Assembly (NCBI RefSeq): GCF_003790525.1
Contig: NZ_CP033635.1
Length of the DNA stretch: 64,000 nt
From: Escherichia coli
GTDB lineage: Bacteria; Pseudomonadota; Gammaproteobacteria; Enterobacterales; Enterobacteriaceae
Direction: 5' to 3' (one strand)
Below the pieces are notes generated by a model, which ran no database searches, had not been told where the DNA came from, and saw only the letters and a program-made list of their open reading frames with translations. Shown piece by piece: positions 9,961 to 12,981 of this stretch. Made by a program: the position numbers and the translations under genes. Position 1 is the stretch's first letter, and each line of letters starts with the position of its first letter.

Positions 9961-9990
9961 ATGGCCGACGCGAAGTCGGCCATTTTTTTA
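9961..9990. terminator. intrinsic terminator shared by grpE and the convergent acidic ORF
   Basis: ATGGCCGACGCGAAGTCGGCCAT hairpin followed by TTTTTTT on the plus strand; the stop codon of the minus-strand ORF lies in the T-run. Confidence 0.75.
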
Positions 9991-10629
9991 GCTTAAAAAA
10001 TCCTGTACTTCCAGCCACGGCGTGTTGAAATCATCTATTTTTTTATATTCGTTCATTGGCAGAACGACCACGTTATAGGTGTCAGATCCTTCATTCAGAT
10101 CAAAAATCTGAAAGCCCCTTTTATTGAGTTCGGTTTGGATGCGTTCAAAGATTTCGTCAAGGTAACGGTCTCCGGCTTCACAGACATCGGAGATTTCATC
10201 CTCTTGGGTTATTTCGACAAGAAGACTCCTTAATTCCTCAGAAGCTGTCAGGTTTTTTGTGAGCTCATAAAAGCGATCTGCAGCAAAATTAGCCAGCTCA
10301 CCTTCTTCATCTTCACCTTTCCAGTCAACGAGTTGAATTAGTCCTTCACCGCGCAGAACCTGTAAAAATGCCTGCGCCAGGTCATGATTTCCGAGATCGC
10401 CTCCACTGCAATCGAGAACGTCTTGTAATCCATATTCGTCTTCATCTTCGTCTTCAAAGATTTCAGGTTGCGTCGAAAGTTGAGAGAAAATAGTGGGCCA
10501 TAAGGTTGGGGTGTGCTGTAAAAAAACGCTGGCGACGACGTTGAGATCGTCTGCAAAATCCTTATCCCATTCAATTAAATAATCTTCTGACATAACATCA
10601 ATATCCTTTCCGAATGTTTGAAAAGACAT
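9988..10629 (-). CDS. hypothetical highly acidic cytoplasmic protein (213 aa), unrecognised, probably accessory
   Basis: Intact ORF; 51 Asp+Glu versus about 13 Lys+Arg; EDEDEDE run; no signal peptide or TM segment; no motif I recognise. Not part of the K-12 grpE-yfjD arrangement as I recall it. Start may be 10629 (no Shine-Dalgarno) or the Met at 10593 (AAGGA about 10 nt upstream). Confidence 0.6.
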   Translation of the reverse strand: MSFQTFGKDIDVMSEDYLIEWDKDFADDLNVVASVFLQHTPTLWPTIFSQLSTQPEIFEDEDEDEYGLQDVLDCSGGDLGNHDLAQAFLQVLRGEGLIQLVDWKGEDEEGELANFAADRFYELTKNLTASEELRSLLVEITQEDEISDVCEAGDRYLDEIFERIQTELNKRGFQIFDLNEGSDTYNVVVLPMNEYKKIDDFNTPWLEVQDFLS

Positions 10630-10682
10630 TATTACATTGCTAAGTAAATGACAGGAATTGATGGAATCCTAAAAGACGGCGA

Positions 10683-10709
10683 TAAAAAAAAAGGCGAACC
10701 GGAGTTCGC
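10683..10709 (-). terminator. intrinsic terminator downstream of yfjD
   Basis: Minus strand reads GGCGAACTCCGGTTCGCC hairpin followed by a T-run (A9 on the plus strand). Confidence 0.7.
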
Positions 10710-10716
10710 CATTGCG

Positions 10717-11979
10717 TTACTCCGCCACGCTCTCGCGTAGCGGTTTCACAGGAAAAACTTTTACCTGCTTAATCATATTGTCCTGAACGTCGAGAATATC
10801 AATATCGTACTCGCCAATACGCACGCGGGTGCCTGCTACCGGGATCTCCTCCAGCGCTTCCAGAATGACGCCGTTAACAGTACGAGCATCATCTTCCGGT
10901 AGATGCCAGTTAAAGGCTTTGTTAATTTCTCGCACGTTGGCAGTGCCATCAATAATCACCGAACCGTCGTTTTGTGGCGTAACTTCTTCGGCAAGTGTTG
11001 GCGACATCGACGTGGTGAAATCGCCGACAATCTCTTCCAGAATATCTTCAACCGTCACCAGCCCCTGAATGTCTCCATACTCGTTGACGACCAGGCCGAC
11101 TTTCTTTTTGTTGCGCTGAAACTTCACCAACTGCGTGCTGAGCGGCGTACCTTCCGGGACAAAATAGATCTCGTCCGCGGCGCGTAGCATGGTTTCTTTG
11201 GTGAACTCTTTTTTCTCCGACATGAGTCGCCAGGCTTCACGCACACGCAGCATACTGATGGCGTCGTCCAGCGAATCACGGTAGAGCACGATGCGCCCGT
11301 GAGGTGAGTGGGAGAGTTGGCGCAGAATCGATTTCCAGTCATCGTTGATATCAATACCGATAATTTCACTGCGCGGCACCATGATGTCATCAACGGTCAT
11401 TTTTTCCAGATCGAGCACCGACAGCAGCATATCCTGATTGCGACGGGAAATTTGTGAGCGCGATTCGTGCACGATAGTGCGCAACTCTTCTTTGCTCAAA
11501 GAGCCGCTAACCACGATATCGGTTTTGATACCCATCATGCGCATCAGCATACGGGTGATAGCATTCAGCAACCAGACCAGCGGCATCATCAAAATTTGCA
11601 GCGGAGCCAGCAGAAAACTACTCGGATAAGCGACTTTTTCCGGGTACAGCGCGGCAATGGTTTTCGGCAATACCTCAGCAAAAACCAGCACGACAAAAGT
11701 CAGCACACCAGTCGCAATTGCCACGCCCGCATCGCCGTACAAACGCATCCCAACAATAGTGCCTAGCGCGGAGGCAAGAATATTGACCAGGTTATTGCCG
11801 ATTAACACCAGGCTAATCAGGCGGTCTGGCTTACGCAGCAATTTTTCGACGCGTTTGGCCGAGCGATTACCCTGTTTCGCCATATGTCGCAGACGATAGC
11901 GGTTGAGGGTCATCATTCCGGTTTCGGACCCGGAAAAATAGGCTGAAATGACCACCATGATGATCAGAATAATGATCAA
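10717..11979 (-). CDS. yfjD: CNNM/CorC-family inner membrane protein (DUF21, CBS pair, CorC-HlyC domains)
   Basis: 420-aa ORF with N-terminal TM helices and C-terminal transporter-associated domain; frame stays open upstream, so the true start is uncertain. Confidence 0.85.
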   Translation of the reverse strand: MIIILIIMVVISAYFSGSETGMMTLNRYRLRHMAKQGNRSAKRVEKLLRKPDRLISLVLIGNNLVNILASALGTIVGMRLYGDAGVAIATGVLTFVVLVFAEVLPKTIAALYPEKVAYPSSFLLAPLQILMMPLVWLLNAITRMLMRMMGIKTDIVVSGSLSKEELRTIVHESRSQISRRNQDMLLSVLDLEKMTVDDIMVPRSEIIGIDINDDWKSILRQLSHSPHGRIVLYRDSLDDAISMLRVREAWRLMSEKKEFTKETMLRAADEIYFVPEGTPLSTQLVKFQRNKKKVGLVVNEYGDIQGLVTVEDILEEIVGDFTTSMSPTLAEEVTPQNDGSVIIDGTANVREINKAFNWHLPEDDARTVNGVILEALEEIPVAGTRVRIGEYDIDILDVQDNMIKQVKVFPVKPLRESVAE

Positions 11980-12023
11980 CGTAGTAGTAGAAATGTGTTC
12001 CAGGGGAAACTCCTTTTCTGGGT

Positions 12024-12815
12024 TTAGCTGATTAACTGCTGGACAATTCGGCTGCCGAAGTAGGCCAGTGTCAGAATGACTGCACCCGCAACGTTAAACC
12101 AGACGACGCGGCGTCCACGCCATCCTTCATGATAATGTCCCCACAGCAGCACAATATAGACAAACCACGCCACGATAGAGAGCACGGCCTTGTCGATATT
12201 TTCCATGCTAAATAAGTTGTGCATGTAGAACAGGCCAGTGCAAAGCGTGAGCGTTAGCAGCACCACGCCAATCTGCGTGATGTGGAACATTTTACGCTCG
12301 ATACTCATCAATGGCGGCATTTCCTGGTTAAACGCCAGCTTCTTGTTCTTCAGTTGGTAATCAATCCACGCCAGTTGCAGCGCGTACAGGGCGGCGATAA
12401 TCAGCGTGGCATAGGAAAAGAGCGATAAGCCAATGTGCACCAGCATCCCAGGCGTTGCTTCCAGATGGGTGATGTATTCATTGGGCATGAAGGTCGCCAG
12501 CGCCAGGTTGATAAGCGCAAAGGCATAGACAATGGGTAGCAGCAACCAGCCACGATTGCGAGAAGCCACAATGGTCATTACCGTACAGATCATCAAACTG
12601 ACCAATGAACCAACGTTCAGCAGGCTGAGGTTTTGTCCGCTATCACCGTCGGGCAGGATGCGGGCTTCCAGAGCGATTGCGTGGCAGACCAGCGCAATGA
12701 CCGCAGAAATAATAGCCATGCGCCGCCAGCCGCCGTTTTTTTGCAGCAGACCGGGAACAATCAGCGCAAGACTGACGGAGTAGGCGACAAGCGCGAGCAG
12801 AGCAAAAACGGGCAT
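12024..12815 (-). CDS. ypjD: inner membrane protein YpjD (cytochrome c assembly-like family)
   Basis: Polytopic membrane ORF divergent from ffh; start taken at MPVFALLALVAY... Confidence 0.8.
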   Translation of the reverse strand: MPVFALLALVAYSVSLALIVPGLLQKNGGWRRMAIISAVIALVCHAIALEARILPDGDSGQNLSLLNVGSLVSLMICTVMTIVASRNRGWLLLPIVYAFALINLALATFMPNEYITHLEATPGMLVHIGLSLFSYATLIIAALYALQLAWIDYQLKNKKLAFNQEMPPLMSIERKMFHITQIGVVLLTLTLCTGLFYMHNLFSMENIDKAVLSIVAWFVYIVLLWGHYHEGWRGRRVVWFNVAGAVILTLAYFGSRIVQQLIS

Positions 12816-12981
12816 AGTAATGTCGACAGTTTGAGCAATAAGAAAGAGAAGCAGTATAGCGTCAGGTGAACGCTGCTCCAACCGTTGCATAACAACAAAG
12901 ACGCCTTCATGTTATACTGCGGCAAAATACTGATGATGTGTCGCGATTGCGGCCAACCGTTTCCACCCCAGGCGAGAGACA

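What the first reader, a model, noticed from the sequence alone, without database searches (positions are those of the whole stretch)
10717..12003. yfjD reading frame is open upstream of the first usable start, so the start site is ambiguous
The ORF track starts yfjD at a TTG (11977..11979), but the frame stays open upstream and reads L-E-H-I-S-T-T-T immediately before it, with a strong AAGGAG Shine-Dalgarno 7 nt upstream of a CTG codon. Either a non-canonical start is used (giving a protein 8 residues longer) or the true start is the internal ATG eight codons further in. This affects the predicted first transmembrane helix.
Basis: seen in the sequence. Interest (0 to 1): 0.2.

Follow-up and report, generated by a model that had tools for sequence, protein, structure and literature searches.

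The report
yfjD starts at a CTG codon
The E. coli membrane-transporter gene yfjD begins at a rare CTG start codon just after a strong ribosome-binding site; the E. coli K-12 curators had already reported and annotated this start, so the apparent ambiguity is settled and the finding is ordinary.

Summary
On the minus strand the yfjD frame is open upstream of the first canonical start (TTG, 11979..11977). An AAGGAG Shine-Dalgarno (12015..12010) lies 6 nt before a CTG (12003..12001).

The ambiguity is already resolved. RefSeq and K-12 MG1655 annotate yfjD as 428 aa starting at this CTG. The EcoGene 3.0 paper states that start-codon mutagenesis with protein fusions confirmed the CTG, and that mutating the TTG at codon 9 had no effect.

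My comparison of 79 Enterobacteriaceae species agrees:
- Codon 1 is always NTG (CTG 36, TTG 30, GTG 13) and its third base never varies.
- Codons 2-8 (E-H-I-S-T-T-T) are conserved, with changes almost only at third positions.
- Codon 9 is a canonical start in only 7 of 79.
- Most species have an in-frame stop 2-7 codons upstream of codon 1.
- 5,424 of 5,426 complete E. coli genomes keep the CTG.

The internal ATG (codon 16) has no Shine-Dalgarno, and starting there would destroy transmembrane helix 1.

One side observation: CTG lineages carry AAGGAG, GTG/TTG lineages carry the weaker AAGGA[A/C/T], and ATG is never seen. This looks like compensation between start codon and Shine-Dalgarno strength.

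Verdict: already known, low interest.

The parts
10717..12003 (-). yfjD coding sequence, 428 codons plus stop. It encodes a CNNM/CorB-type (HlyC/CorC family) inner-membrane transporter.
   Evidence: RefSeq CDS WP_010723175.1 maps exactly to these coordinates. K-12 b4461 has an identical start region. Pfam: CNNM residues 11-184 (E=8e-54), CBS, CorC_HlyC.
12001..12003 (-). CTG initiation codon (codon 1, decoded as fMet).
   Evidence: It is the annotated start in RefSeq and K-12. EcoGene 3.0 reports mutagenesis confirmation. Orthologues have CTG, TTG or GTG here with an invariant third base. 5,093 + 331 E. coli genomes keep it.
12010..12015 (-). Shine-Dalgarno sequence AAGGAG.
   Evidence: Read directly from the sequence. 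Duplex with the 16S 3' end is -8.2 kcal/mol. AAGGA is conserved in 79 of 79 species.
12004..12009 (-). 6-nt spacer TTTCCC between the Shine-Dalgarno and the CTG. It is non-coding.
   Evidence: 331 O157:H7-type genomes carry one extra C here (7-nt spacer) with yfjD still intact and annotated from the CTG. A 1-nt insertion would be a frameshift if this stretch were translated.
11977..11979 (-). TTG, codon 9 (Leu). It is the first canonical start of the mechanical ORF and the older K-12 annotation, but it is not the start.
   Evidence: No Shine-Dalgarno (+2.4 kcal/mol). It is TTG in only 7 of 79 species and another Leu codon (CTN or TTA) elsewhere. Mutating it had no effect on expression.
11956..11958 (-). 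ATG, codon 16. It is an internal Met within transmembrane helix 1 and is used as the start in the O157:H7 Sakai author annotation.
   Evidence: Invariant in 79 of 79 species but has no Shine-Dalgarno. Starting here loses helix 1 and CNNM profile positions 1-5. Sakai annotation.
11980..12000 (-). Codons 2-8 (E-H-I-S-T-T-T), the translated N-terminal tail.
   Evidence: The amino acids are nearly invariant across 79 species, and nucleotide variation is almost entirely at third codon positions.
12024..12815 (-). Upstream gene ypjD (RefSeq 263 aa). Its TAA stop (12026..12024) lies 20 nt before the yfjD CTG, so the two are probably co-transcribed and may be translationally coupled.
   Evidence: RefSeq annotation and sequence. 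Coupling is an inference.
12094..12096 (-). Nearest upstream in-frame stop (TAA). There is no ATG, GTG or TTG between it and the CTG.

Best explanation
yfjD is translated from the CTG at 12003..12001, giving a 428-residue protein that begins fMet-Glu-His-Ile-Ser-Thr-Thr-Thr.

The proposed sequence of events is as follows. The 30S subunit pairs its anti-Shine-Dalgarno with AAGGAG (12015..12010). This places the CUG, 6 nt downstream, in the P site. Initiator fMet-tRNA then reads CUG despite a first-position mismatch.

CUG is an intrinsically weak start, about 1-2% of AUG in reporter assays. The near-perfect Shine-Dalgarno, and probably ribosomes arriving from ypjD (whose stop is 20 nt upstream), partly offset this. 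The net result is a low, fixed level of a CNNM/CorB-type membrane transporter.

What is shown here or in the literature: the position of the start, the Shine-Dalgarno, and the translated status of codons 2-8. What is inferred: low expression as the selected outcome, coupling to ypjD, and the fMet identity of residue 1.
For: 1. RefSeq annotates the CDS from the CTG in all five E. coli genomes examined that carry RefSeq's automated annotation, and so does the curated K-12 MG1655 record.
2. [quoted passage not shown]
3. In 79 species loci, codon 1 is CTG 36, TTG 30, GTG 13. Only its first base varies and its third base is invariant, whereas Leu codons 9 and 13 vary freely at the third position. 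Codons 2-8 show variation almost entirely at third positions. 76 of 79 loci have no canonical in-frame start upstream before a stop, and 59 of 79 have that stop within 2-7 codons.
4. Anti-SD duplex energy is -8.2 kcal/mol before the CTG, against +2.4 before the TTG and +0.6 before the ATG.
5. In the E. coli population, 5,093 genomes have the exact SD-spacer-CTG 30-mer and 331 have it with one extra C in the spacer. None has a TTG, GTG or ATG variant of that 30-mer.
6. The N-terminus fits homologues. Pfam CNNM profile position 1 aligns to residue 11, and MtCorB (7m1u) residue 11 aligns to YfjD residue 10.
7. CUG initiates at 1-2% of AUG in E. coli reporters (bioRxiv 10.1101/063800).
Against: The mutagenesis result is cited in the paper only as 'unpublished results', so no primary data could be inspected. 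I found no ribosome-profiling or N-terminal peptide evidence for yfjD: supplements for the Ribo-RET preprint are not held, and the TetRP supplements do not mention yfjD. ATG codon 16 is invariant, so a minor internal initiation there cannot be formally excluded from sequence alone. Public records disagree on the start: the Sakai annotation begins at ATG codon 16 and older K-12 records began at the TTG.
Confidence: 0.92

Rival explanations
1. Translation starts at the TTG (codon 9, 11979..11977), giving a 420-aa protein. On this reading the upstream open frame and the AAGGAG are incidental.
For: It is the first canonical start in the ORF and was the earlier K-12 annotation. A 420-aa product would keep the whole Pfam CNNM domain and a hydrophobic helix 1.
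Against: There is no Shine-Dalgarno (+2.4 kcal/mol). Codon 9 is TTG in only 7 of 79 species and is otherwise CTG, CTC, CTA, CTT or TTA, so it behaves as an ordinary Leu codon. The eight codons upstream are under protein-level selection. Mutating the TTG had no effect on expression.
Confidence: 0.03
2. Translation starts at the internal ATG (codon 16, 11958..11956), giving a 413-aa protein, as in the O157:H7 Sakai author annotation.
For: The ATG is invariant in 79 of 79 species. It is the only ATG near the 5' end, and one public annotation uses it.
Against: There is no Shine-Dalgarno (+0.6 kcal/mol). Codons 2-15 are conserved at the amino-acid level, mostly through synonymous changes. Best 19-residue hydropathy falls from 2.43 to 0.74, so helix 1 would be lost. 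Positions 1-5 of the CNNM profile would also be lost. The invariance is explained by Met16 being a helix residue.
Confidence: 0.02
3. More than one start is used. The CTG is used normally, and the TTG or ATG is used under particular conditions, for example after MazF cleaves the mRNA at the ACA at +8..+10 (11996..11994), which removes the Shine-Dalgarno and the CTG.
For: The MazF-regulon study lists yfjD as cleaved at an ACA '17 nt from the start' and as polysome-associated. The only ACA that fits lies 17 nt upstream of the TTG, inside the CTG-started CDS.
Against: That study apparently measured from the old TTG annotation, so the site is simply an intragenic cut. The TTG is not conserved as a start and has no Shine-Dalgarno. 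TTG mutation had no effect under the conditions tested. There is no direct evidence for a shorter isoform.
Confidence: 0.03

Closest known systems
E. coli K-12 yfjD (b4461, YP_026171.3 / WP_010723175.1), the second CTG-initiated gene confirmed in E. coli K-12 (EcoGene 3.0, PMC3531124)
   Same: It is the same gene. The start region is identical base for base, the protein accession is the same as in the window's closest genome, and so are the CTG, Shine-Dalgarno and spacer.
   Different: Nothing differs at the start site. The window comes from another lineage: it is 100% identical to strain SC516 over the 1,701-bp query (window 10600-12300), and carries an extra DUF6630 gene downstream of yfjD that K-12 lacks.
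[quoted passage not shown]
   Same: Both are chromosomal genes with a CUG start codon read by initiator tRNA. In both, the true N-terminus was missed by gene finders that accept only ATG, GTG or TTG.
   Different: hda is an unrelated protein (a DnaA-inactivation factor). I did not examine its Shine-Dalgarno or its orthologue pattern here.
infC and pcnB AUU starts in E. coli (from my own knowledge of the literature)
   Same: They are near-cognate start codons that keep expression low. The class of near-cognates (AUA, AUC, AUU, CUG) initiates at 1-2% of AUG.
   Different: The infC AUU is the sensor of an IF3 autoregulatory loop. No regulatory role is known or shown for the yfjD CUG.
CorB/CNNM Mg2+ transporters: MtCorB structures 7m1t/7m1u, TpCorC 7cff, Salmonella CorB
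   Same: The domain order is the same: CNNM (DUF21) membrane domain, CBS pair, then CorC_HlyC. YfjD aligns to MtCorB from residue 10, with an N-terminal overhang of equal length.
   Different: Transport activity and substrate of E. coli YfjD were not examined here. Identity to MtCorB is modest (E=6e-44 over 317 residues).

Membership tests
Bacterial genes initiated at a non-canonical CUG codon | No ATG, GTG or TTG in frame between the nearest upstream stop and the proposed codon | tested here: met
   The in-frame TAA is at 12096..12094, and the first canonical start after it is the TTG at 11979. The same holds in 76 of 79 orthologous loci.
Bacterial genes initiated at a non-canonical CUG codon | A Shine-Dalgarno sequence at functional spacing (about 5-9 nt) from the codon | tested here: met
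   AAGGAG with a 6-nt spacer and a duplex energy of -8.2 kcal/mol. It is conserved in 79 of 79 species.
Bacterial genes initiated at a non-canonical CUG codon | Protein-level conservation begins immediately after the codon, and the codon itself behaves as a start (NTG) in orthologues | tested here: met
   Codon 1 is CTG, TTG or GTG with TG invariant. Codons 2-8 vary almost only at third positions. Upstream sequence other than the Shine-Dalgarno is unconserved.
Bacterial genes initiated at a non-canonical CUG codon | Mutating the codon abolishes expression, and mutating the alternative starts does not | not testable with these tools
   Reported by the EcoGene curators for the CTG and the TTG as unpublished results (PMC3531124). 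ATG codon 16 is not mentioned there.
Bacterial genes initiated at a non-canonical CUG codon | The mature or nascent N-terminus is (f)Met followed by the residues encoded after the CUG | not testable with these tools
   No N-terminal proteomics or initiation-profiling data for yfjD could be retrieved.
CNNM/CorB (HlyC/CorC family, UPF0053) transporters | N-terminal CNNM (DUF21) transmembrane domain | tested here: met
   PF01595 E=8e-54, residues 11-184 matching profile positions 1-174 of 181. Aligns to the MtCorB and TpCorC membrane domains.
CNNM/CorB (HlyC/CorC family, UPF0053) transporters | Cytosolic CBS-pair domain | tested here: met
   PF00571 scores 35.8 bits against a cut-off of 24. Residues 201-330 match the CBS-domain crystal structure 3hf7 (E=2e-74, nearly identical in the printed alignment).
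CNNM/CorB (HlyC/CorC family, UPF0053) transporters | C-terminal CorC_HlyC domain | tested here: met
   PF03471 E=2.3e-19, residues 344-418.
CNNM/CorB (HlyC/CorC family, UPF0053) transporters | Mg2+ (or other cation) transport activity | not testable with these tools
   No functional data on E. coli YfjD were found in the papers searched.

The most novel reading that the evidence does not exclude
The yfjD initiation region may be held at a fixed, low translation rate by compensation between start codon and Shine-Dalgarno strength. Across Enterobacteriaceae the start has switched among CTG, TTG and GTG about ten times. Nearly every CTG allele carries the full AAGGAG, every GTG allele and all but one TTG allele carry the weaker AAGGA[A/C/T], and ATG is never used. 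That would make this gene an unusually clean single-gene natural series for start-codon/Shine-Dalgarno compensation that includes a CUG start. The genome-wide study of Belinky et al. 2017 could not resolve the direction of such coupled changes.
Probability: 0.5. Interest if true: 0.3.

Novelty: already known. Interest (0 to 1): 0.12.

Why it matters
This matters mainly for annotation hygiene. Gene finders that accept only ATG, GTG or TTG truncate YfjD by 8 residues, or by 15 in the Sakai record. Three different starts for this one gene coexist in public records. At least one functional-genomics study apparently measured a '5'-UTR' cleavage site from the obsolete TTG start.

The correct start matters for anyone who clones or tags YfjD, or models the first transmembrane helix of this CNNM/CorB homologue.

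The covariation between Shine-Dalgarno and start codon is a neat illustration of a known principle and could serve as a natural test set. It does not open a new question.

Tried and rejected
- I looked for direct initiation-site evidence. No supplements are held for the Ribo-RET preprint, and the TetRP paper's held supplements contain no yfjD or b4461 entry. Full-text searches for yfjD returned 11 papers, of which only EcoGene 3.0 deals with its start codon.
- I considered ATT (codon 4) as an alternative near-cognate start and rejected it. It lies 15 nt from the Shine-Dalgarno, it varies as ATT, ATC or ATA like an ordinary Ile codon, and E2 and H3 before it are conserved.
- I considered an N-terminal extension upstream of the CTG and rejected it. 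There is no start codon there, most orthologues have an in-frame stop 2-7 codons upstream, and O157:H7 tolerates a 1-nt insertion immediately before the CTG.
- My first threshold for a 'strong' Shine-Dalgarno (-9 kcal/mol) was badly chosen and uninformative. I replaced it with presence or absence of GGAG.
The ancestral start codon is therefore unknown.

Full report
**What is in the sequence**

The region is E. coli DNA. A 1.7-kb query matches 5,425 of 5,426 complete E. coli genomes and is 100% identical to strain SC516.

On the minus strand the gene order is ffh (divergent), ypjD, yfjD, a DUF6630 gene, then grpE. The mechanical ORF for yfjD begins at TTG 11979..11977 and gives 420 aa. The frame is open for 38 further codons upstream, to a TAA at 12096..12094.

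Immediately upstream of the TTG the frame reads CTG-GAA-CAC-ATT-TCT-ACT-ACT-ACG (L-E-H-I-S-T-T-T). AAGGAG lies at 12015..12010, separated from the CTG (12003..12001) by TTTCCC. The next ATG is codon 16 (11958..11956).

**What is already known**

RefSeq annotates yfjD as 1,287 nt (428 aa) beginning at this CTG. This holds in the window's closest genome, in four other E. coli genomes carrying RefSeq's automated annotation (identity to the window down to 94%), and in the curated K-12 MG1655 record (b4461, YP_026171.3). The K-12 start region is identical to the window.

The EcoGene 3.0 paper (PMC3531124) has a section headed 'CTG start codon verification'. [quoted passage not shown] Rudd, unpublished results).

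**Independent comparative test**

A genome scan returned 80 orthologous loci from Escherichia, Salmonella, Citrobacter, Klebsiella, Raoultella, Enterobacter, Kluyvera, Kosakonia, Cedecea and others. Of these, 79 include the start region.

- *Codon 1.* It is CTG in 36, TTG in 30 and GTG in 13. Only its first base varies. Its second and third bases have zero entropy, whereas the true Leu codons 9 and 13 have third-position entropies of 1.26 and 0.87. This is the signature of a start codon, not of a Leu or Val sense codon.
- *Codons 2-8.* They encode E-H-I-S-T-T-T in nearly all species, with variation almost entirely at third positions. They are therefore translated and under purifying selection.
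- *Codon 9.* It is a canonical start (TTG) in only 7 of 79 species. Elsewhere it is CTG, CTC, CTA, CTT or TTA.
- *Upstream of codon 1.* 76 of 79 loci have no canonical in-frame start before the next stop, and in 59 that stop lies only 2-7 codons away. Apart from AAGGA, the upstream sequence is unconserved.

**The E. coli population**

The exact 30-mer spanning Shine-Dalgarno, spacer, CTG and the next 11 bases is present in 5,093 genomes. A further 331 genomes, of the O157:H7 type, have the same sequence with one extra C in the spacer. Versions of the 30-mer with TTG, GTG or ATG in place of CTG occur in none. The tolerated 1-nt insertion directly before the CTG is further evidence that nothing upstream of the CTG is translated.

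**The other candidate starts**

- Predicted pairing with the 16S 3' end is -8.2 kcal/mol upstream of the CTG. It is +2.4 upstream of the TTG and +0.6 upstream of the ATG.
- Pfam's CNNM profile begins at residue 11 of the 428-aa protein.
- The solved archaeal homologue MtCorB aligns residue 11 to YfjD residue 10, so the two have N-terminal overhangs of equal length.
- A 19-residue hydropathy window peaks at 2.43 starting at residue 4 and is still 2.21 at residue 9. It falls to 0.74 at residue 16.

An ATG start would therefore abolish transmembrane helix 1. The CTG/TTG choice only adds or removes a short polar tail. ATG codon 16 is invariant in all 79 species, but that is expected for a conserved helix residue.

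**Mechanism**

*Shown.* The position of the start, a conserved Shine-Dalgarno at 6-nt spacing, and translated codons 2-8.

*From the literature.* CUG belongs to the near-cognate class that initiates at 1-2% of AUG in E. coli reporters (bioRxiv 10.1101/063800).

*Inferred.*
- fMet-tRNA reads the CUG, so the protein starts with Met, not Leu.
- The weak codon keeps YfjD expression low.
- The strong Shine-Dalgarno partly offsets the weak codon.
- Ribosomes terminating at the ypjD stop, 20 nt upstream, may also help offset it.

In the 79 species, 32 of 36 CTG alleles carry GGAG (mean duplex -8.1 kcal/mol). Only 1 of 43 GTG or TTG alleles does; these are AAGGAA, AAGGAC or AAGGAT, at about -6.0 kcal/mol.

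On a neighbour-joining tree of the gene (start region excluded), parsimony needs 9 changes for CTG versus non-CTG and 9 changes for GGAG versus no GGAG. It needs only 11 for the joint character, so most changes fall on the same branches. Treating each clade that is uniform for codon 1 as one data point, CTG clades still have stronger Shine-Dalgarno sequences (p=0.008).

The pattern replicates in metagenome contigs: 46 of 48 CTG alleles have GGAG, against 0 of 71 GTG or TTG alleles. An ATG version of the conserved start (ATG-EHISTTTLI) was found 0 times in that collection.

This fits the compensation between start codons and Shine-Dalgarno strength described genome-wide by Belinky, Rogozin and Koonin (PMC5622118). 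They could not determine the direction of coupled switches.

There are caveats. The tree comes from a single gene. The two sites are 7 nt apart and would move together in any recombination event. No expression was measured.

**Annotation consequences seen in passing**

The O157:H7 Sakai author annotation starts yfjD at ATG codon 16, giving 413 aa. Older K-12 records used the TTG. Three different starts therefore coexist in public data.

The MazF-regulon study lists yfjD as cleaved at an ACA '17 nt from the start'. There is no ACA within about 40 nt upstream of the CTG. The ACA at 11996..11994 lies exactly 17 nt before the TTG. The site was evidently measured from the old annotation and lies inside the real coding sequence.

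**Verdict**

The 'non-canonical start' reading is correct and already curated, with the curators' own statement that it was confirmed experimentally. The 'internal ATG' reading is rejected. This is already known and of low interest. The covariation between Shine-Dalgarno and start codon is the only mildly new element.

Noticed in passing
window 12001-12015 (-); loci L004-L083 and L089-L208 at the orthologous start: Start-codon identity covaries with Shine-Dalgarno strength across Enterobacteriaceae. CTG alleles carry AAGGAG (32 of 36 species; 46 of 48 metagenome alleles). GTG and TTG alleles carry AAGGA[A/C/T] (GGAG in 1 of 43 and 0 of 71). Changes mostly fall on the same branches of the gene tree (9 + 9 changes, 11 jointly). 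This looks like compensatory evolution holding the initiation rate constant.
   Followed up: partly
window 12001-12003 (-); metagenome scans: An ATG is never found at the yfjD start. It is absent from all 79 species. This suggests selection against efficient initiation of this transporter.
   Followed up: partly
window 12004-12009 (-); L085 and L088: 331 complete E. coli genomes, mostly O157:H7 (including Sakai), have one extra C in the spacer between the Shine-Dalgarno and the CTG (TTTCCCC, 7 nt instead of 6). yfjD is otherwise intact. The effect on expression is unknown.
   Followed up: partly
L088 (NC_002695.2, O157:H7 Sakai) 216 onward; window 11956-11958 (-): The Sakai author annotation starts yfjD at ATG codon 16 (413 aa) and ypjD at the longer 288-aa start. 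Three different yfjD starts (CTG, TTG, ATG) therefore coexist in public records.
   Followed up: yes
window 11994-11996 (-): The MazF-regulon paper (PMC5001579, Table 1) reports a cleaved ACA '17 nt from the start' of yfjD as a 5'-UTR site. The only ACA that fits is 17 nt upstream of the obsolete TTG start, in codons 3/4 of the real CDS. The cut would remove the Shine-Dalgarno and the CTG rather than trim a leader.
   Followed up: partly
window 9988-10629 (-): A DUF6630-family gene (RefSeq 606 nt) sits between yfjD and grpE in this window and in strains SC516 and 23CRST046. It is absent in K-12 MG1655 and strain 2020CK-00188, where grpE follows yfjD directly. Most E. coli matches to the 1.7-kb query stop at about 93% coverage for this reason.
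   Followed up: no
window 12024-12890 (-): The start of ypjD is also inconsistent between records. The mechanical ORF and the Sakai record give 288 aa from ATG 12890. RefSeq and K-12 annotate 263 aa from 12815.
   Followed up: no
L009, L019, L024-L026, L036, about 45 nt upstream of the yfjD start: In one Citrobacter amalonaticus, the Raoultella loci (L019, L024, L025), Enterobacter sp. 10-1 (L026, same upstream sequence) and Intestinirhabdus, the sequence just upstream of the Shine-Dalgarno is not the usual ypjD 3' end and stop. In the Raoultella-type loci it is GC-rich and looks like an inserted element. The Shine-Dalgarno and the CTG are kept. Coupling to ypjD, if it exists, is therefore not universal.
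   Followed up: no
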